DNA of 64,000 nucleotides from Methylocystis sp. Lineage in GTDB: Bacteria; Pseudomonadota; Alphaproteobacteria; Rhizobiales; Beijerinckiaceae. Where the stretch lies: NCBI RefSeq assembly GCF_051062815.1, contig NZ_JBPFDU010000074.1:13828-77827 (forward strand), in the 5' to 3' direction. A model generated the notes under the pieces. That model was not told the DNA's origin. It worked only from the letters and a program-made list of their open reading frames with translations, and did not search any database. Within the stretch, counting starts at the first letter, position 1. Every line of letters begins with the position of its first letter. Below, in pieces: positions 25,360 through 33,122 of this stretch. A program made the position numbers and the translations under genes.

Positions 25360-25622
25360 TTGTTCTCCCGAGAGCCCAGAGAGGGCGGCGCCGGCAAGGG
25401 TTAGCGTTGCAGATCGGCTTTCGGCGATCGGACGTCCCCCGCGGCTAAAACGCGAGGCTGGACGAAAAGTTCGCTAAGCGAACTGCCGGCGCGGCCCGAT
25501 GTCGAAAACCAAAGCGAATGCCCCGGCTTGGTTACCGAGGCGGGGCCTATCTACCAGCGGCGCGCCGCCGTCGCAAGCGCGCCGAAAAGAAAAGAGTCGA
25601 CGCAGCCTGCGCAAAGCTATGA

Positions 25623-25637
25623 TATTGCACTGCAATA
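25623..25637. promoter_or_regulatory. Perfect 7-1-7 palindrome in an AT-rich island (candidate operator)
   Basis: TATTGCA-C-TGCAATA. Confidence 0.4.
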
Positions 25638-25916
25638 AGTTAACAATATACTGTTTTAATATAATAATCATAATGCAAAAGGGCTCGTTTGTTGGCGAAT
25701 TTCTCGCTAGCGGAATCGCAGCCGCACGCATAGTCTGCGTCCTACTGCCACGCTTCGGCGCGCCGCCAAGCGTCAGCGCCGGCGCGCCCGCCGCCCGGAG
25801 CAACATTGGCGCGCCGGGCCGCTTGGCCGAAGCCCAGTAGAACTTCGCTTTCGCCGTCCAGACGGCGAGAGCGTCGACTTCCCGTCGTTGCGACGGGGAT
25901 ATAAAGAGGAGAAGAG

Positions 25917-26147
25917 ATGAAGACGAATATTATTTCAGGTTCGGCTCTCGCCGCCGCCGCCGTCGCCCTTGCTCTGAGCGGCGCATCGGTTGCGCCCGCC
26001 CACGCGCATTCCGCGAAGTCGACCCACGCGAAGACCCATTGCGGGGCCAAGGGAACATGCCGCGGCATGGCCAAGTGCCACCACAAGGCGCAGTGTCACC
26101 ATCACAAGGGTCGCTGCAACATGAAGAGCCGCTGCCACAGCAAGTAA
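25917..26147 (+). CDS. Secreted Cys/His-rich RiPP precursor (bufferin BufA2-like)
   Basis: SD GAGGAG; Sec signal ending AHA; core with 6 Cys (C42,48,54,60,67,73) and 9 His; directly upstream of the MNIO gene. Confidence 0.8.
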   Translation: MKTNIISGSALAAAAVALALSGASVAPAHAHSAKSTHAKTHCGAKGTCRGMAKCHHKAQCHHHKGRCNMKSRCHSK

Positions 26148-26237
26148 TCGGCTTGCGCGGGGGCGGCGCCTACAGCCGTCCCCGCCACGCTGATGCGGCT
26201 CCGGCATGAGCGGCGATGCCTGAGAGGGGAACACGTC

Positions 26238-27083
26238 ATGGAAAAACCCGCGCCGCTTGGCTACGGCTTGGGTCTGCGGCCAATCTATTATGAAGAGATC
26301 CTGTCGTCGCGCCCGCCGATCGACTGGTTCGAAATCATTTCTGAAAACTACATGCTCGCCGGCGGCCGGCCGCTGGCGATGTTGGAGCGGATACGCGCCG
26401 ATTATCCCGTCGTCATGCATGGCGTCTCGATGTCGCTTGCGTCAACCGACCCGCTCAACTTCGACTATTTGCGGCAGTTGAAGGCGCTTGCTGAACGTGT
26501 CCAGCCGGCATGGGTTTCAGATCACATCGCCTGGACAGGCGTTCATGGCGTGACGCTTCACGATCTGCTGCCGATTCCCTACACGCGCGAGTCGCTCGCG
26601 CATGTCGTCGAGCGCATCCAACGGGTGCAGGACTTTCTCAAGCGCCGGCTGGTCGTTGAGAACGCCTCGACCTACGTGTCCTTTGTCGATTCCGAGATGA
26701 GCGAACACGAGTTCGTTCGCGAAATGGCCGAGCGCGCCGATTGCCTGTTGCTGCTCGACGTCAACAATGTTTTCGTTTCGAGCTTCAACCACGGCTTCGA
26801 TCCCGTCGCCTTCATCGATGGCGTTCCGGCTGAGCGCGTCGTGCAATTTCACATGGCGGGTCATACCAACAATGAGACTCATCGCGTCGACACACACGAC
26901 CAGCCGGTCTGTGACGAGGTCTGGGCGCTGTACGAGCACGCGCGTCGTCGCTGCGGCGACGTCTCCGCCATGATCGAGCGCGATGACAATTATCCGCCGC
27001 TTGCGGAGCTTTTGGACGAACTCCAGAATATGCGTGATATCGACGCCCGTATCTCAAAAGTGCAAGCGCTCAGCGCGGCATGA
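26238..27083 (+). CDS. DUF692 multinuclear non-heme iron oxidative enzyme (MNIO; BufB/MbnB superfamily)
   Basis: GLGLR, FEIISENY, HGVSMSL, VSDHIAW, VENAS, LDVNN, FHMAGH, DTHD, IERDDN; start trimmed to ATG 26238. Confidence 0.92.
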   Translation: MEKPAPLGYGLGLRPIYYEEILSSRPPIDWFEIISENYMLAGGRPLAMLERIRADYPVVMHGVSMSLASTDPLNFDYLRQLKALAERVQPAWVSDHIAWTGVHGVTLHDLLPIPYTRESLAHVVERIQRVQDFLKRRLVVENASTYVSFVDSEMSEHEFVREMAERADCLLLLDVNNVFVSSFNHGFDPVAFIDGVPAERVVQFHMAGHTNNETHRVDTHDQPVCDEVWALYEHARRRCGDVSAMIERDDNYPPLAELLDELQNMRDIDARISKVQALSAA

Positions 27084-27919
27084 AACTCGCCGATTTTCAG
27101 TCTCTGTTTCAGCAGCGCGTGCTGGCCGGCTCTGGAGAGGCGGACAAGCCTCTTCTGAAAAAATTGAGGCCGTCGCCGCGCGGCGCCACGCCAGAGACGC
27201 TGCTGGACGTCTATCAGACCGGCTACCGCATTCGACTGGCGGACTTTGTCTCGCAGGATCACCCGGGGCTGCGCGCGATTCTCGGAGACGAGGCGTTTGA
27301 CGCGCTGGTCCACGACTACATCGACCAATGTCCGTCGCGCGATCCGAACGCCCGCTGGTTTACGACCGGACTGCCGGACTTCATGCGCGAGAATGCGCGC
27401 TGGCGCGACGATGGCGCGGCCGTGTCCATGGCGCTGTTTGAGCGCGCCATGGTCGACGCCTTCGACTCCGCTGACGAAACGCCGGTGACGGTGCAGGCGC
27501 TGGCGGGATTTGCGCCCGACGATTGGGCGCGGCTCGCTTTCGAATTCGACCCGAGCCTCACGCTGCTCGAACTCGTCGCTGGCACGATCGAGGCCTATAG
27601 CGCGGCGATCAGCGAGGAGGCGCCGGCGAAAGTCGATAAGCCCGCGGCGGGCGATCACATCGAATATGCCGCCGTATGGCGCGTCGATCATGAATCCGCC
27701 TATCGCCAGCTCGAGCCCGACGAATATGTCGCGCTGTCCGAAGCGCGCGCCGGCCACGCCTTCGGCGACATTTGTCAGATGACCGCCTTTCAGCAGGCGG
27801 GCGAGATTGCGCCGGAGCGGCTGGCGCAATCGCTGTCGAGCTGGTTTGAGGACGGCATGATTATCGGCGTGCGCGTCCGCGGGGACGATCAGTCTTCGAA
27901 TACGCCTTCAAGCGCGTAG
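27080..27919 (+). CDS. DUF2063-type MNIO partner protein (BufC/HvfC-like)
   Basis: LADFQxLF, LDVYQTGYRIRL, DHPGLRAILGDEAF, MALFERA; ATGA overlap with the MNIO gene. Confidence 0.85.
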   Translation: MKLADFQSLFQQRVLAGSGEADKPLLKKLRPSPRGATPETLLDVYQTGYRIRLADFVSQDHPGLRAILGDEAFDALVHDYIDQCPSRDPNARWFTTGLPDFMRENARWRDDGAAVSMALFERAMVDAFDSADETPVTVQALAGFAPDDWARLAFEFDPSLTLLELVAGTIEAYSAAISEEAPAKVDKPAAGDHIEYAAVWRVDHESAYRQLEPDEYVALSEARAGHAFGDICQMTAFQQAGEIAPERLAQSLSSWFEDGMIIGVRVRGDDQSSNTPSSA

Positions 27920-28431
27920 TGCTGGACGCTCTTGCGGTTGGCGATGAGTTCGTCGGCCGTCGGCTCGCCCTTCATGGCGCGAGAGATCGCGAGCTTCGTC
28001 GCTTGGTAATTGGTGCGATAGAGGTCTTTCTTGTCGAGTTCCGCATGGGTGGCGCAACGCGGATCGAGCCAGACCATGATGATCATGCACAGGTCGTTGA
28101 GCTGATCCTTCGGGAGAATTCCTTCGGCGACGCAGTCGACGATGGCGTCGCCGGTCGCCGCTTGCACCACGCCGCCAAGAAGCTCGACGTAATCTTCCGA
28201 TTTGACCGTCATTTTGGTGGTCATCATCGTCGACGGCCGCACCTGCTGGTTGAGGTCGCGGATGACGAACATGCGCGGATGGCCGGCGACCTGACCCGCC
28301 ATGCTGGCGAAGGCGTGCCCGACCGGTCCCTTGACATTGCCGATCATGACTTCCGGCATGGCGTCGGTATATTGTCCGTCCGCGGCCAGAACCGTCGCTT
28401 CGCCCGTCGCCAGCCAGATATGCTCGGTCAT
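27889..28431 (-). CDS. Formaldehyde-activating enzyme homolog (Fae2/3-type)
   Basis: GEATV, GPVGHAF, QVRPSTMM, QAATGDAIVDCVAEGILP, NYQATKLAISRAM; start trimmed to ATG 28431. Confidence 0.85.
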   Translation of the reverse strand: MTEHIWLATGEATVLAADGQYTDAMPEVMIGNVKGPVGHAFASMAGQVAGHPRMFVIRDLNQQVRPSTMMTTKMTVKSEDYVELLGGVVQAATGDAIVDCVAEGILPKDQLNDLCMIIMVWLDPRCATHAELDKKDLYRTNYQATKLAISRAMKGEPTADELIANRKSVQHYALEGVFED

Positions 28432-28544
28432 TTTCCATCCCCTGCAATGAAGTGGCTGGGAAATAGCATTGAGGCGGGCAGTAGGGAAGGCCAAGTGCGG
28501 CGCGCTCTTGGCGCGGACAGAGCAAAAGTCGATTTGGGAAAGAT

Positions 28545-29378
28545 GTGAATATAGTGGTATTTTTGCGAGACGTCGGATCGTTTGTGCGCTCAGTGGCCAT
28601 CGCCTTGCTGGCTGCGGCCGCGCCAATGTTCGGATTTTATTTTCTTCTGACAAGCCAGCTGGCGCCCGTTCGCGAACCTCTCTGGAGTTTGCCGACGATC
28701 TTCATTCCGGCTGTTTATTGCTGCCTTTGGCTCTTGAGGCGCGAACGCAGTTTCCGCTCGGCGAGCTTTGCTCTAAAACTGACATTGGTTCACGCTGCCG
28801 CGATGCTGGCGCTTCTGGCGCTCGGTTGGTGGCGGAACGTCGCGGTCGCGGCTCTGTTCTTTGACAGCCTGCTCCTTTTTGCGCTGCTTGGCCCTGTCAC
28901 TGAGAAACGAGAATCATCGGAGCGCTACGCTTTCTCGAAAGCCACTATCTTTTGGATCGGAACTATTCTCGCTATTTTTTTGCCGCTCGGCTTTCTCAAT
29001 TCGGTCGTCGTTGTTTTTCGCGCCGAGCAACTGGCTGGAGAGCGACCCTATTGCATCCAATATGCAAACGACGCAGACCGCAGTCCTCGATACGATTCAG
29101 TGCGCAGCGTCTTTGATCTCTCGATTTTCAGGTTGCTAAACAGATCCAGCGGCGGGGGCAATACCGGCGTGACGTTTGAATGGAAGCACCATGGCCTGCT
29201 CGCGCTTGATGATGACGTTCGTCGCTACTACAACTGGTCTTATGCTTATGAGGAATTTCGTGATGAGGTTGTCAATCGCGGGTTGTTCGATAACGACGTT
29301 TTCCGACCCGAAATAGTTTGTCGCGTTGAACCTCATTTCGCGATGAAACTTCCGCTCTGGAGTGGATCGCGCGATTAA
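28545..29378 (+). CDS. Hypothetical membrane protein, AT-richer than flanks
   Basis: 277 aa; about 5 hydrophobic segments then a soluble C-terminal domain. Confidence 0.6.
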   Translation: MNIVVFLRDVGSFVRSVAIALLAAAAPMFGFYFLLTSQLAPVREPLWSLPTIFIPAVYCCLWLLRRERSFRSASFALKLTLVHAAAMLALLALGWWRNVAVAALFFDSLLLFALLGPVTEKRESSERYAFSKATIFWIGTILAIFLPLGFLNSVVVVFRAEQLAGERPYCIQYANDADRSPRYDSVRSVFDLSIFRLLNRSSGGGNTGVTFEWKHHGLLALDDDVRRYYNWSYAYEEFRDEVVNRGLFDNDVFRPEIVCRVEPHFAMKLPLWSGSRD

Positions 29379-30893: not shown

Positions 30894-33122
30894 TCACTCC
30901 GCGGCGTGCGGGGTTCTCTGCGCAGCGGCCGCCAGCGCGGCGCGGCGCGGCAGACGCGCGATCATGCCGATGAGCGCGCGGTCGGAGAGCGCCACCAGCC
31001 GCTCGCCGCGGTTCAGCCAATTGACCGCGTCCTCGATCGTCTCGGCGTCGGCGATTTTCGTTTCGGCCAAGGCGCGGTCCGCGGTGATCTGACCGCGCTG
31101 CCTCGGGCGTCGTGTCGGCAGCCAGCTTTCGTGCAGCGCGCGCAACTCCGGATCGGCGTGGATGGCCAACAGACCATTGACGTCATCTTCCCCGGCGCGC
31201 GCCAGCGCTTTCGAGAGCGCCTTGCCGCGCTTGGCGATCGGCGGCGTCGTGGTTTCTTCGGGTGTCGTCAGCACGCCGGCGCGACGAAACATCAGGCCCA
31301 GCCAACGTTGACTCGTCGCCCAGGAAATCAGGATCGCAAGCACGAGGCCGGCGATCGTCGGCGACATCCAGGCGACGAGCGAGGGCGAAATCATGAAGCC
31401 TGCGATGAGGCTTAAGAGGCCCAGCGCCACGTGCCACATGTGGCGGCGAACGATATCGCCAAACGGCACCGAGCCGTCGTCGCGTCGCTGGGGATCCCAA
31501 CCGGTATCGAAGCCGAAAACGATGTGCAGCACATGGCCGGTCTGAATCAGCATCATGATCGGCGCCAGCAGGGCGGACAGCACGACTTCGAAAAGGGTCG
31601 AGATCAGCAGCATGATCACGCCGCCGGAGCCTTTGCGCGTTTCCGGCTCATAAATGGCGACGATCAGGCCCAACATCTTGGGGGCGAGCAGAATGCCCAT
31701 CGTCAGTCCGAAGAGTTCGAGCGACCGTTCGGCGTCGAAGCGCGGGAAGGTCGGAAAGAGCGCAAATTCGCCGGTAAAATATTCGGGTCGGAAATAGCTC
31801 GCCTGGAAGACGATGACGATGCCGATGAGAAGTTGCAGCAGCCAGAGCGGCGATGTCAGATAGCCGAAAATGCCCGTGAGAAAATGCTGCCGCGACGCCC
31901 AGTGAAAGCCTTTGCCGAGCAGTACCCGCGAATGCTGCAAGTTGCCCTGACACCAGCGGCGGTCGCGAATCGACAGGTCGATCAGGGAAGGCGGGCTTTC
32001 CTCATAGGAACCGCCGAGCGTCGGCGTCATGTAGACCGCGTATCCGGCGCGGCGGATAAGCGCGGCTTCGACGAAGTCATGGCTCAGGATATGGCCGCCC
32101 CAAGGCGGCCGGCCGTGCAAGTCGGGCAGGCCGCAGTATCGGGCGAAGGCCTCCGTGCGGATGATCGCGTTATGCCCCCAATAATTGCCGTCGCGGCCCA
32201 TCCAGGCCGTCAGGCCCATCGCGATGACGGGGCCATAGATGCGCGCGGCGAATTGCTGGACCCGGGCGAAGAGCGTGTTCCGATTGATGATCAGCGGAAG
32301 GGTCTGGATGATGCCGCTGTCGGGGTCGGCCTCCATTGCGGCGGCGAGCTGCACGATGGTCGGCCCGCTCATCAGGCTGTCGGCGTCGAGCACCACCATG
32401 TGCTGATAGGCGCCACCCCAGCGCGAGACGAAATCTTCAATATTGCCCGCCTTGCGTCCGGTGTTCTTTTCACGCCGGCGGTAGAAGATTCGCGCCTGTG
32501 GGCCCAGCCGGCGGCGAATGCCGATGAAGGCGCGCTCTTCGGCGACCCAGATGTCGGGATTGGTGGTGTCGGAGAGGAAGAACCAATCGAAATGCGCGCC
32601 AAGGCCGGTCGCTTGCACGTCTTCGTAGATCGTCTGCAGGGCGGCGAACACTCGGCTCGGCGCCTCATTGTAGATCGGCATCACGACGGCGGTGGTTTCG
32701 GCGAGCGCCGTCGGCAGAGCCGGGCGCCGGCGCCGGCGCATCAGCAGGGCGAAGCCAACGACGCAGCTCGTGAAGGACAGCGCGATCCAGGAGAAGTTCA
32801 GCACGAACAACCCCAGCAGCGCCCACTTCAATGTCGTCACCCCGCCGACGTCGACGACCTTATACATCTCGTGAGCGCCATAGGCGGTCAGCGCCAAGCC
32901 GCCGCCAAAGGTGACAATCCTCGCAAGCCATGGCGTGCGCCACAGCCAAGGCGCCTCGGTTTTGCGCCGCTGCCGCTTGTCGAATTTGAAAAGGCTTTGC
33001 GCCGGCATCGACAGCCGGCTCTCGATCGGGGTCGGCGGGGCGGCGGCGGGATCGGAGCTGGCGGTCCGCCATGCCATTGCCCGCGGCGGATCGTCTGAAG
33101 GAGCGAGGGTCACGACGTCCAT
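30894..33122 (-). CDS. opgH: Glucans biosynthesis glucosyltransferase OpgH/MdoH
   Basis: MPIYNE, KAGNI, VLDADS, NYWGHNAII, LSHDFVEA, RDRRWCQGN; start trimmed to ATG 33122. Confidence 0.94.
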   Translation of the reverse strand: MDVVTLAPSDDPPRAMAWRTASSDPAAAPPTPIESRLSMPAQSLFKFDKRQRRKTEAPWLWRTPWLARIVTFGGGLALTAYGAHEMYKVVDVGGVTTLKWALLGLFVLNFSWIALSFTSCVVGFALLMRRRRRPALPTALAETTAVVMPIYNEAPSRVFAALQTIYEDVQATGLGAHFDWFFLSDTTNPDIWVAEERAFIGIRRRLGPQARIFYRRREKNTGRKAGNIEDFVSRWGGAYQHMVVLDADSLMSGPTIVQLAAAMEADPDSGIIQTLPLIINRNTLFARVQQFAARIYGPVIAMGLTAWMGRDGNYWGHNAIIRTEAFARYCGLPDLHGRPPWGGHILSHDFVEAALIRRAGYAVYMTPTLGGSYEESPPSLIDLSIRDRRWCQGNLQHSRVLLGKGFHWASRQHFLTGIFGYLTSPLWLLQLLIGIVIVFQASYFRPEYFTGEFALFPTFPRFDAERSLELFGLTMGILLAPKMLGLIVAIYEPETRKGSGGVIMLLISTLFEVVLSALLAPIMMLIQTGHVLHIVFGFDTGWDPQRRDDGSVPFGDIVRRHMWHVALGLLSLIAGFMISPSLVAWMSPTIAGLVLAILISWATSQRWLGLMFRRAGVLTTPEETTTPPIAKRGKALSKALARAGEDDVNGLLAIHADPELRALHESWLPTRRPRQRGQITADRALAETKIADAETIEDAVNWLNRGERLVALSDRALIGMIARLPRRAALAAAAQRTPHAAE

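What the first reader, a model, noticed from the sequence alone, without database searches (positions are those of the whole stretch)
25917..27919. Minimal MNIO RiPP cluster with a His-rich six-Cys secreted precursor (bufferin-like) in a methanotroph
Seen: precursor with a Sec signal and core HSAKSTHAKTHCGAKGTCRGMAKCHHKAQCHHHKGRCNMKSRCHSK (Cys spacing x5,x5,x5,x6,x5; 9 His; very basic), followed by DUF692 with intact metal-ligand motifs and a DUF2063 partner. The operon ends against a convergent gene, with no DoxX gene and no ECF sigma/anti-sigma nearby. Established: DUF692 enzymes modify Cys in methanobactin (MbnB), bufferins and oxazolins to give Cu-binding heterocycles. Inference: a distinct metallophore/metal-buffer peptide combining modified Cys with poly-His, giving this methanotroph a non-methanobactin route for Cu (or Ni/Zn) handling.
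Basis: partly seen in the sequence, partly recalled or inferred. Interest (0 to 1): 0.7.

Follow-up and report, generated by a model that had tools for sequence, protein, structure and literature searches.

The report
His-rich bufferin-type peptide cluster, Methylocystis
A methane-oxidising Methylocystis carries a real three-gene cluster that should make an exported, histidine- and cysteine-rich peptide with enzyme-modified cysteines; it is an unnamed, almost genus-restricted offshoot of the known copper-binding "bufferin" peptides, and what metal it handles is untested.

Summary
Window 25917-27919 encodes three genes. The first is a 76-aa precursor: a Sec-type signal ending AHA|H, then a 46-aa core with 6 Cys (spacing 5,5,5,6,5), 9 His and pI 10.1. 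The second is a BufB-type MNIO (NCBIfam MNIO_BufB 377 bits, cut-off 310) with all Fe ligands and the catalytic Asp. The third is a translationally coupled DUF2063/PME1 partner.

The precursor fits no curated family (BufA2 HMM 18 bits, cut-off 60; no DUF2282 hit). It is nevertheless a derived BufA2:
- It has the same signal peptide and Cys period.
- Its BufB is nested among BufA2-linked BufBs and keeps the Cys-Lys-type ERDDN motif.
- In related contigs one BufBC pair follows three tandem precursors: a poly-His 2-Cys type, a His-rich type and a true BufA2.

The family occurs in 51 of 78 Methylocystis species genomes and in Methylosinus. It is very rare elsewhere and is annotated "hypothetical protein". 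It is under purifying selection (dN/dS 0.12).

Lacking DoxX and a nearby ECF pair is normal for Buf2 clusters. The genome also encodes methanobactin and a canonical σF-type BufA2 cluster, whereas this cluster has a different conserved promoter and palindrome.

Most likely product: a disordered periplasmic thiooxazole-plus-His metal binder, probably for copper. This is a new variant of a known kind. Chemistry, metal and expression are untested.

The parts
25622..25638 (.). Conserved palindrome ATATTGC-ACT-GCAATAA, a candidate regulator-binding site in the rpsA/precursor intergenic region.
   Evidence: ATATTGC-N3-GCAATAT is kept in 8 of 9 close orthologous loci, and a TATTGC...GCAA(T) element is kept in the more distant Methylocystis loci. 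Only one other near-identical copy exists in the 4.24-Mb genome (C80:26836). The regulator is unknown.
25706..25736 (+). Conserved promoter-like block GCTAGCGGAATC-N13-TAGTCT, about 180 nt upstream of the ATG. It is not sigma-F type.
   Evidence: GGAATC-N16-TCT (or close variants) was found in 8 of 9 close loci, and GCTAGCGAAAGC...TAATCT in the distant loci. No GTAACC-N16-CGAA motif occurs anywhere in the 557-nt intergenic region. The transcription start has not been mapped.
25852..25898 (+). Two conserved leader hairpins (25852-25867 and 25880-25898) just upstream of the Shine-Dalgarno sequence.
   Evidence: RNAalifold on 10 loci gives 19 pairs, 3 of them with compensatory changes. No Rfam family matches. 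Function is unknown.
25917..26147 (+). Precursor peptide gene (76 aa). The Sec-type signal peptide is encoded by 25917-26006 and the His/Lys-rich 6-Cys core by 26007-26144.
   Evidence: Sequence; composition. BufA2 HMM scores only 18.3 bits against a cut-off of 60, and there is no Pfam hit. dN/dS is 0.12. The AF2 core is disordered, pLDDT 51. The family comprises about 60 clusters at 90% identity.
26157..26185 (+). GC-rich 11-bp stem-loop directly after the precursor stop codon, with no T-tract. Probably a transcript-stabilising or attenuating element between precursor and enzyme genes.
   Evidence: Fold of 26140-26245 gives -51.5 kcal/mol, z = -2.5. The hairpin is kept in 9 close loci, and a non-homologous GC hairpin occupies the same position in distant loci. 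The function is inferred.
26238..27083 (+). bufB: BufB-type multinuclear non-haem iron oxidase (MNIO, 281 aa).
   Evidence: PF05114 370 bits; NF050167 MNIO_BufB 377 bits, above the cut-off of 310. All Fe ligands and the catalytic Asp249 are present. The ERDDN motif is the Cys-Lys type (PMC13097082). Orthologues start at MEKPAPLGYGLG.
27080..27919 (+). bufC: DUF2063/PME1 partner protein (279 aa), translationally coupled to bufB through an ATGA overlap.
   Evidence: PF09836 63.8 bits. The AF2 model has pLDDT 88. Foldseek top hits are TglI (8HCI_A, 8HI7_A) and NGO1945 (3DEE), TM 0.52-0.69. NCBI names orthologues 'HvfC/BufC family peptide modification chaperone'.

Best explanation
This is a lineage-specific (Methylocystis/Methylosinus) offshoot of the BufA2-type bufferin system, also called the 'Cys-Lys' captophorin system.

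Proposed mechanism:
1. The 76-aa precursor is made in the cytoplasm.
2. The BufB (tri-iron MNIO) and BufC (PME1) complex oxidises several of its six Cys to 5-thiooxazoles. By analogy with Buf2 these are the four central ones, which here are followed by Arg, His, His and Asn. Each modification costs 4.03 Da.
3. The Sec system exports the peptide and signal peptidase cuts after AHA.
4. A roughly 46-residue, very basic and intrinsically disordered peptide remains in the periplasm. Thiooxazole N/S donors alternate with His imidazoles every six residues and bind metal ions, most probably copper.

How it arose: by tandem duplication of bufA2. Gly, Asn and Gln were replaced by His and Lys, the folded C-terminal part was lost, and the enzyme barely changed. 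The cluster has acquired its own regulation, which is not sigma-F.

Shown here: gene content, family membership of enzyme and partner, intact catalytic residues, descent from BufA2, distribution, purifying selection, and a different promoter. Inferred: the modification itself, which Cys are modified, the metal, and the physiological role.
For: Enzyme and partner:
- BufB equivalog score is above the cut-off and DUF2063 is present.
- Fe ligands and the catalytic Asp are conserved.
- The Asp after the catalytic Asp (ERDDN) is found in Cys-Lys-type MNIOs, where it is modelled to contact the basic residue after the target Cys (PMC13097082 section 14).
- The BufC fold matches TglI and 3DEE.

Descent from BufA2:
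- The signal peptide is nearly identical to that of the genome's own bona fide BufA2, which scores 89.6 bits. The full-length profile-profile probability is 99%.
- Cys spacing is 5,5,5,6,5 here against 5,5,6,5,13 in that BufA2.
- On the BufB tree, His-rich-linked enzymes sit inside the BufA2-linked ones, with only two clade-specific substitutions.
- The operons L055 and L057, read in full, place a poly-His 2-Cys precursor, a His-rich precursor and a third BufA2-type precursor (88.4 bits, scored in L055) before one BufB-BufC pair. L056 has the same gene layout.

Reality of the gene:
- dN/dS is 0.12.
- The rpsA|A-B-C|fae|pyrD arrangement is syntenic in 9 Methylocystis genomes (8 with pyrD; in L042 the contig ends first), and rpsA|A-B-C is kept in 5 more.
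- 51 of 78 genus genomes carry a family member.

Copper link:
- Characterised bufferins and captophorins carry 5-thiooxazoles and bind Cu (PMC11626156; PMC13097082).
- PCuAC lies divergently next to the related mixed operons.
- CopC and DUF2946 lie beside orphan relatives.
Against: - No chemical, expression or metal-binding data exist for any member of this family.
- The core alone has only weak profile similarity to BufA2 cores (hhalign probability 14%, E = 0.002), so homology of the cores rests largely on context and Cys spacing.
- The residues after the Cys here are G, R, H, H, N and H, not the Lys of BufA2. Whether BufB accepts Cys-His or Cys-Asn is untested.
- A sigma-F promoter is absent, so the cluster need not respond to copper excess as Caulobacter buf2 does.
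- His-rich tracts and neighbouring HupE/UreJ and NicO genes in orphan relatives would fit Ni/Co or Zn equally well.
Confidence: 0.72

Rival explanations
1. Same biosynthesis, different metal. The thiooxazole/His peptide would be a periplasmic Ni, Co or Zn buffer or chaperone rather than a copper binder, for example serving hydrogenase or urease nickel supply or zinc stress.
For: The core has 9 His in 46 residues, and related precursors carry poly-His tracts. Orphan relatives P0044 and P0048 lie among two HupE_UreJ genes and a NicO gene. The cluster is not under the copper-responsive sigma-F motif that the canonical BufA2 cluster of the same genome has.
Against: The same orphan neighbourhoods also hold CopC, DUF2946, PepSY_TM and a TonB-receptor plug. 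The mixed operons sit next to PCuAC. Every characterised MNIO-PME1 product binds Cu (PMC13097082). His is also a good Cu(II) ligand.
Confidence: 0.15
2. A copper supply or storage role rather than detoxification. The peptide would hold periplasmic copper for pMMO and other cuproenzymes, and would be regulated by a dedicated transcription factor acting at the conserved palindrome instead of by the sigma-F stress regulon.
For: The host is a pMMO methanotroph. The family is almost confined to Methylocystis and Methylosinus. It has a distinct conserved promoter and palindrome and no sigma-F motif. PCuAC, a Cu(I) delivery chaperone, is adjacent in relatives.
Against: There are no expression data. 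27 of 78 Methylocystis genomes lack the family, so it is not essential for pMMO. The neighbours in this window are housekeeping genes.
Confidence: 0.25
3. The peptide is exported unmodified, or only disulfide-bonded, as a simple Cys/His metal-binding or cationic peptide. The adjacent BufBC would then act on another substrate, such as the orphan BufA2-like gene elsewhere in the genome.
For: The residue after the Cys differs from the Lys preferred in BufA2. Precursors without adjacent MNIOs exist. Weak defensin-like Pfam hits occur in 4 of 15 members.
Against: The A-B-C order is strict, with a hairpin after A and coupled B-C genes, in all loci. The BufB clade co-diverges with these precursors. 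No other candidate substrate gene lies at the locus in this genome. Export by Sec alone gives a periplasmic location, so an antimicrobial role is unlikely.
Confidence: 0.07

Closest known systems
Bufferin 2 system of Caulobacter vibrioides (BufA2-BufB2-BufC2; BUF_6/12Cys, the 'Cys-Lys' captophorins; PMC11626156, PMC12452194, PMC13097082)
   Same: - Three-gene A-B-C layout without DoxX or a linked sigma/anti-sigma pair.
- Sec signal peptide on the precursor, and six Cys with a ~6-residue period.
- BufB equivalog with the ERDDN motif, and a DUF2063/PME1 partner.
- The His-rich type is co-encoded with a true BufA2 before one enzyme pair in relatives.
   Different: - The core fails the BufA2 HMM (18 bits against 60).
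- It lacks the C-terminal CKGQGW...C segment and is predicted disordered instead of a small folded protein.
- It has 9 His against 1, and the residues after the Cys are mostly His, Arg or Asn rather than Lys.
- It has no sigma-F promoter.
- It is restricted to Methylocystaceae methanotrophs.
EGKCG-repeat captophorins (oxazolin/HvfA, fontiphorin, gonophorin)
   Same: These are also repetitive, probably unstructured, exported Cys-repeat peptides modified by an MNIO-PME1 pair into multi-thiooxazole copper binders.
   Different: - Their repeat is Lys-Cys-Gly (EGKCG), not Cys-His or Cys-Lys.
- Their MNIO has Phe, not Asp, after the catalytic Asp (3BWW reads ERDFN).
- The HvfB HMM scores 276 here, below its cut-off of 360.
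- They often include DoxX.
Bufferin 1 (DUF2282/BufA1 with BufD DoxX and SigF-NrsF)
   Same: It uses the same enzyme-partner chemistry and a periplasmic copper-buffering logic.
   Different: There is no DUF2282 hit here, no DoxX, and a different Cys pattern: BufA1 has 4 conserved Cys within a folded domain.
Methanobactin (MbnA/MbnB/MbnC)
   Same: It is also made by an MNIO acting on Cys of a ribosomal peptide in a methanotroph, and it is copper-related.
   Different: - The MbnB HMM scores 82 against a cut-off of 325.
- The partner here is DUF2063, not MbnC.
- The precursor carries a Sec signal rather than a leader with secretion by MbnM and uptake by MbnT.
- The expected product is a thiooxazole, not an oxazolone-thioamide.
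- The genome has a separate mbn operon.

Membership tests
MNIO-PME1 thiooxazole RiPP clusters (bufferins / captophorins) | MNIO enzyme of the BufB/HvfB mega-cluster | tested here: met
   NF050167 MNIO_BufB scores 377.2 bits against a cut-off of 310; PF05114 scores 370 bits.
MNIO-PME1 thiooxazole RiPP clusters (bufferins / captophorins) | Intact iron ligands and catalytic Asp | tested here: met
   H61, H96, E141, D174, N177, H205, D218, H220, E247 and D249 align to the VcMbnB ligands and base.
MNIO-PME1 thiooxazole RiPP clusters (bufferins / captophorins) | DUF2063 + RRE-type partner (PME1) encoded directly after the MNIO | tested here: met
   PF09836 scores 63.8 bits. The genes are coupled by an ATGA overlap. 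The AF2 model (pLDDT 88) matches TglI and 3DEE.
MNIO-PME1 thiooxazole RiPP clusters (bufferins / captophorins) | Cys-containing precursor with an N-terminal Sec signal, encoded directly before the MNIO | tested here: met
   The sequence has MK, a hydrophobic helix and AHA|H. The signal is nearly identical to that of the genome's BufA2. No dedicated signal-peptide predictor was run.
MNIO-PME1 thiooxazole RiPP clusters (bufferins / captophorins) | Cys converted to 5-thiooxazole; product binds copper | not testable with these tools
   This needs LC-MS, UV, NMR and metal titration.
BufA2 (BUF_6/12Cys; NCBIfam NF050166) | Precursor scores above the family cut-off | tested here: not met
   The score is 18.3 bits against 60. 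The best of 15 family members reaches E = 6e-5. The genome's C30 precursor scores 89.6 bits.
BufA2 (BUF_6/12Cys; NCBIfam NF050166) | Six conserved Cys in a small folded domain with a C-terminal GW...C segment | tested here: not met
   Six Cys are present with similar spacing for the first five, but the C-terminal segment is absent and the core is predicted disordered. Core-only hhalign probability is 14%.
BufA2 (BUF_6/12Cys; NCBIfam NF050166) | Sigma-F (GTAACC-N16-CGAA) control, as in Caulobacter buf2 | tested here: not met
   There is no such motif in the 557-nt upstream region. The C30 BufA2 cluster has GTAACT-N16-CGAA (consensus from PMC3511200).
BufA1 (DUF2282) | PF10048 domain | tested here: not met
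   No hit was found even at E <= 10 for any of 15 family members.
Oxazolin / HvfA-type (EGKCG, Lys-Cys) | EGKCG repeats, and an HvfB-type MNIO with Phe after the catalytic Asp | tested here: not met
   The core has no EGKCG repeats. HvfB scores 276.5 against a cut-off of 360, and HvfC scores 20.9 against 142. The motif is ERDDN, not ERDFN.
Methanobactin | MbnA leader-core peptide, MbnB equivalog and an MbnC partner | tested here: not met
   MbnB scores 81.6 bits against a cut-off of 325. The partner is DUF2063. The true mbnA-mbnB genes lie on contig C75.

The most novel reading that the evidence does not exclude
The His-rich peptides form a functionally new branch of thiooxazole metallopeptides. 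Alternating thiooxazole and imidazole donors on a disordered chain would give a metal selectivity or role that canonical bufferins lack, for example periplasmic copper supply or storage for pMMO, or Ni/Zn buffering. The branch would be controlled by a so far unknown regulator acting at the conserved ATATTGC-N3-GCAATAT palindrome rather than by the sigma-F copper-stress regulon. One BufBC pair would process three chemically different precursor types.
Probability: 0.25. Interest if true: 0.7.

Novelty: new variant of a known kind. Interest (0 to 1): 0.5.

Why it matters
Copper handling is central to methanotroph physiology. Known players are methanobactin, Csp, CopCD and PCuAC.

This work identifies a conserved, purifying-selected periplasmic peptide family that is still annotated 'hypothetical'. 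It is present in about two thirds of Methylocystis species.

The family is a natural experiment on the bufferin/captophorin scaffold:
- The enzyme is the same as for BufA2, but the substrate has been rewritten from Gly/Asn/Gln-rich and folded to His/Lys-rich and disordered.
- In some operons the original BufA2 is encoded alongside it.

It offers a direct test of MNIO substrate tolerance (Cys-His and Cys-Arg versus Cys-Lys) and of how second-shell His residues tune thiooxazole metal binding. It also gives a handle on a non-sigma-F regulatory input.

It does not open a new category of system.

Tried and rejected
- Rfam on the leader and intergenic region returned nothing meaningful.
- The sigma-70 scan flagged an AT-rich TTAACA-17-AATAAT at 25640-25668. 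Comparative alignment favours the conserved GGAATC...TAGTCT block instead. Neither has been mapped experimentally.
- No DNA-level tandem repeat lies in the core, so the hexapeptide periodicity is not a recent slippage product.
- Regulon search with the palindrome found one other close copy, upstream of a 128-aa secreted protein with no Pfam hit. This was uninformative.
- The supplements of the two survey papers that are held as text did not contain CHHK-type precursors. The files are truncated, so absence is weak evidence.
- The BufC sequence search against PDB found nothing; the relation appeared only by fold comparison.
- An antimicrobial-peptide reading was considered and rejected: export is by Sec only, and there are no immunity or exporter genes.
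- The longer MNIO start at 26193 was rejected in favour of 26238, based on orthologue N-termini and the RBS.
- Monophyly of the His-rich-linked BufBs is not strictly shown. A long-branched BufA2-linked pair (L012 and L021) falls inside the clade with weak support.
Full report
**1. What is there**

Window 25917-27919 holds three co-directional genes.

Precursor gene, 25917-26147:
- It has a strong Shine-Dalgarno sequence and encodes 76 residues.
- The N-terminus (MK, then the hydrophobic stretch IISGSALAAAAVALALSGASVAPAHA) looks like a Sec signal with an AXA site.
- The remaining 46 residues are HSAKSTHAKTHCGAKGTCRGMAKCHHKAQCHHHKGRCNMKSRCHSK.
- The core has six Cys spaced 5,5,5,6,5, nine His, eleven Lys+Arg, no acidic residue, and pI 10.1.

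Second gene (bufB), 26238-27083:
- It is a DUF692/MNIO enzyme (PF05114, 370 bits).
- It passes NCBI's equivalog model for the bufferin maturase BufB (377 bits, cut-off 310).
- It fails the HvfB, ApyH, MbnB and ChrH models.
- Aligned to VcMbnB (7DZ9), every published iron ligand and the general base are present: H61, H96, E141, D174, N177, H205, D218, H220, E247 and D249 (ligand list from PMC8888699).

Third gene (bufC), 27080-27919:
- Its ATG overlaps the bufB stop codon.
- It carries DUF2063 (63.8 bits).
- Its AlphaFold model (pLDDT 88) finds TglI (8HCI, 8HI7) and the Neisseria PME1 protein 3DEE as best structural matches.

A GC-rich 11-bp hairpin (26157-26185) follows the precursor stop codon. 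It is kept in close relatives. In distant relatives a different hairpin sits in the same place.

The operon ends against a convergent Fae paralogue.

**2. The gene is real and conserved**

- Ten close orthologues give dN/dS = 0.12 at dS = 0.6 (signal peptide 0.08, core 0.16).
- Fifteen GTDB genomes, ten labelled Methylocystis (M. parvus, M. borbori, sp. B8, sp. JAN1 and MAGs) and five labelled only as alphaproteobacterial MAGs, carry a relative.
- Nine of these loci are syntenic as rpsA(-) | A-B-C(+) | fae(-), eight continuing to pyrD(-) (in L042 the contig ends first). Five more keep rpsA | A-B-C without fae or pyrD. In the fifteenth (L049) none of the flanking or enzyme genes was found next to the precursor.
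- A genus-wide six-frame search finds a family member in 51 of 78 species genomes, and in 38 of 52 good-quality ones.
- A sister form occurs in Methylosinus.
- Outside these genera, an order-level sample of 401 genomes gave only BufA2-level scores.
- An exhaustive HMM search of 1.84 billion representatives gave 5 hits at E <= 1e-10 and 54 at E <= 1e-3.
- The word-indexed search of 5.8 billion proteins found about 60 clusters at 90% identity. Those that carry a source name are called 'hypothetical protein', with a few automatic labels such as 'uncharacterized membrane protein', 'type IV secretory pathway TrbL component' and a UniRef 'DUF2282 domain-containing protein'.
- Across the family the core has a median of 6 Cys, 9 His, 11.5 Lys+Arg and no acidic residues. 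The residue after Cys is mostly Lys, His, Gly or Met.

**3. What it is related to**

The precursor fits no curated family:
- There is no Pfam hit (DUF2282 is absent even at E = 10).
- It scores 18.3 bits on the BufA2 equivalog, whose cut-off is 60.

Several lines nevertheless show that it derives from BufA2.

(a) The same genome has a canonical BufA2-BufB-BufC cluster on contig C30 (precursor 89.6 bits).
- Its signal peptide is almost the same (MKVSIVSGSTLAAAAIALALSGAASTPAAA).
- Its Cys spacing is 5,5,6,5,13.
- Full-length profile comparison gives 99% probability. With the signal peptide removed this drops to 14% (E = 0.002). Core homology is therefore supported mainly by spacing and context.

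(b) BufBs next to His-rich precursors are 76-94% identical to the window's enzyme, while BufA2-linked ones are 61-70% identical.
- On an ML tree the His-rich-linked enzymes group together inside the BufA2-linked ones. They are sister to the Methylosinus BufA2-linked pair (100/96).
- One long-branched BufA2 pair is placed among them without good support.

(c) The enzyme itself hardly changed.
- Only two positions (M206, R216) are fixed differently.
- Both groups keep ERDDN.
- Gadgil et al. (PMC13097082, section 14) report that Cys-Lys-type MNIOs have Asp at this position where Lys-Cys (EGKCG) enzymes have Phe. They model it against the Lys after the target Cys. 3BWW indeed reads ERDFN.

(d) The most direct evidence comes from metagenomic contigs L055-L057, where a single BufB-BufC pair (BufB 77% identical to the window's in L055 and L057) is preceded by three tandem precursors (read in L055 and L057; L056 has the same gene layout):
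- a 2-Cys peptide with a poly-His tract;
- a His-rich C-x5 repeat peptide (HCSMKHHCKMKHHCKMKHHC...; BufA2 model 25.9 bits);
- a true BufA2 (88.4 bits).
Tandem sets of two or three precursors also occur in M. parvus-type loci.

The His-rich type therefore arose by duplication of bufA2 and is presented to the same enzyme.

**4. How it most likely works**

In Buf2 of Caulobacter the four central Cys become 5-thiooxazoles and the outer two form a disulfide. The peptide is Sec-exported, accumulates in the periplasm and protects against copper (PMC11626156). The thiooxazole assignment has been extended to oxazolin and related peptides, which bind several Cu ions, and the class has been named captophorins (PMC13097082).

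By homology of enzyme, partner and gene order, I infer the following:
- BufBC oxidises some or all of the six Cys of this core before export.
- The mature ~46-residue peptide is periplasmic.

Unlike BufA1 and BufA2, which are predicted to fold as small proteins, this core is predicted disordered (pLDDT 51; only the signal helix is modelled). In that respect it resembles the EGKCG peptides.

Thiooxazoles alternating with His every six residues would give a dense, flexible set of soft and borderline donors.

**5. Which metal, and what role**

Copper is the best guess:
- all characterised relatives bind it;
- PCuAC (60.6 bits) lies divergently next to the mixed operons;
- CopC, DUF2946, PepSY_TM and a TonB plug flank the orphan relatives.

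Those same orphan loci also hold two HupE/UreJ genes and a NicO gene, and poly-His suits Ni and Zn. Metal specificity is therefore open.

**6. Regulation differs from the canonical system**

- The C30 BufA2 cluster has GTAACT-N16-CGAA about 70 nt upstream of its ATG. This matches the sigma-F site GTAACC-N16-CGAA (PMC3511200).
- A sigF-nrsF pair lies 10 kb away from it.
- The window's 557-nt intergenic region has no such motif, even loosely.
- Instead, all Methylocystis loci share three elements: a palindrome ATATTGC-N3-GCAATAT (window 25622-25638), a GCTRGCGRAA...TARTCT block (25706-25736), and a leader with two hairpins.
- The regulator is unknown.

This is the main hint that the role may differ from copper-excess defence.

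**7.

- The 'minimal' layout (no DoxX, no ECF pair) is the normal Buf2 layout (PMC11626156; PMC12452194).
- The host is not short of other copper peptides. It has mbnA-mbnB, the canonical BufA2 cluster, an orphan BufA2-like gene and a TIGR04222-type MNIO cluster.
- Antoine et al. (PMC12452194) already note hundreds of unclassified small signal-peptide ORFs with 1-18 Cys in front of mega-cluster MNIOs. This family would fall into that unclassified remainder.

**8. Verdict**

This is a genuine, conserved, unnamed subfamily: a new variant of a known kind. Its interest lies in three points:
- the rewritten substrate;
- the mixed-precursor operons;
- the non-sigma-F control in methanotrophs.

Chemistry, metal and expression remain to be shown.

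Noticed in passing
L055:6001-8719 (also L056, L057): In L055 and L057, read in full, one BufB-BufC pair is preceded by three tandem precursors of different types: a poly-His 2-Cys peptide, a His-rich C-x5 repeat peptide and a third, BufA2-type precursor (88.4 bits in L055). L056 shows the same gene layout. A PCuAC copper chaperone gene lies divergently upstream and a Fae paralogue lies convergent downstream.
   Followed up: partly
L050:1-11149 and L054:1-14308: Orphan His-rich relatives (P0044, P0048) have no adjacent MNIO. They sit in a metal-gene island with two HupE_UreJ genes, NicO, CopC, DUF2946, PepSY_TM and a TonB-receptor plug.
   Followed up: partly
L027:1501-1668 (G000 contig C30:38314-38481) and C30:25992-27454: The same genome has a canonical BufA2-BufB-BufC cluster. 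The precursor scores 89.6 bits on NF050166, and a sigma-F-type promoter GTAACT-N16-CGAA lies upstream. A sigF-nrsF pair lies about 10 kb away on the same contig.
   Followed up: yes
G000 contig C78:7976-8164 (outside the window): An orphan BufA2-like precursor gene (…VHCLGVNSCKGKADCHSPKNACKGMNSCKGQGWVF…) has no MNIO nearby.
   Followed up: no
L003 (G000 contig C99:63659-67438) and L004 (C75:30712-34446): The genome holds two further MNIO loci. One follows a TIGR04222-like membrane protein and lies near a radical-SAM gene. The other is the methanobactin operon, with mbnA at C75:31999-32085 and mbnB at 32170-32997.
   Followed up: partly
window 27889-28432 (-): A Fae (formaldehyde-activating enzyme) paralogue converges on bufC with a 31-bp overlap of the 3' ends. 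This adjacency is kept even in loci whose upstream synteny differs (L055-L057), but it is absent from the M. parvus-type loci.
   Followed up: partly
window 25622-25638; G000 contig C80:26836-26852: The conserved palindrome upstream of the cluster has only one other near-identical copy in the genome. That copy lies about 105 nt upstream of a 128-aa secreted protein with no family hit.
   Followed up: partly
window 28545-29378 (+): A 277-aa multi-pass membrane ORF with no Pfam or NCBIfam hit lies between the Fae paralogue and pyrD. It has no counterpart in the syntenic loci of other Methylocystis genomes; sp. B8 has an acetyltransferase there.
   Followed up: no
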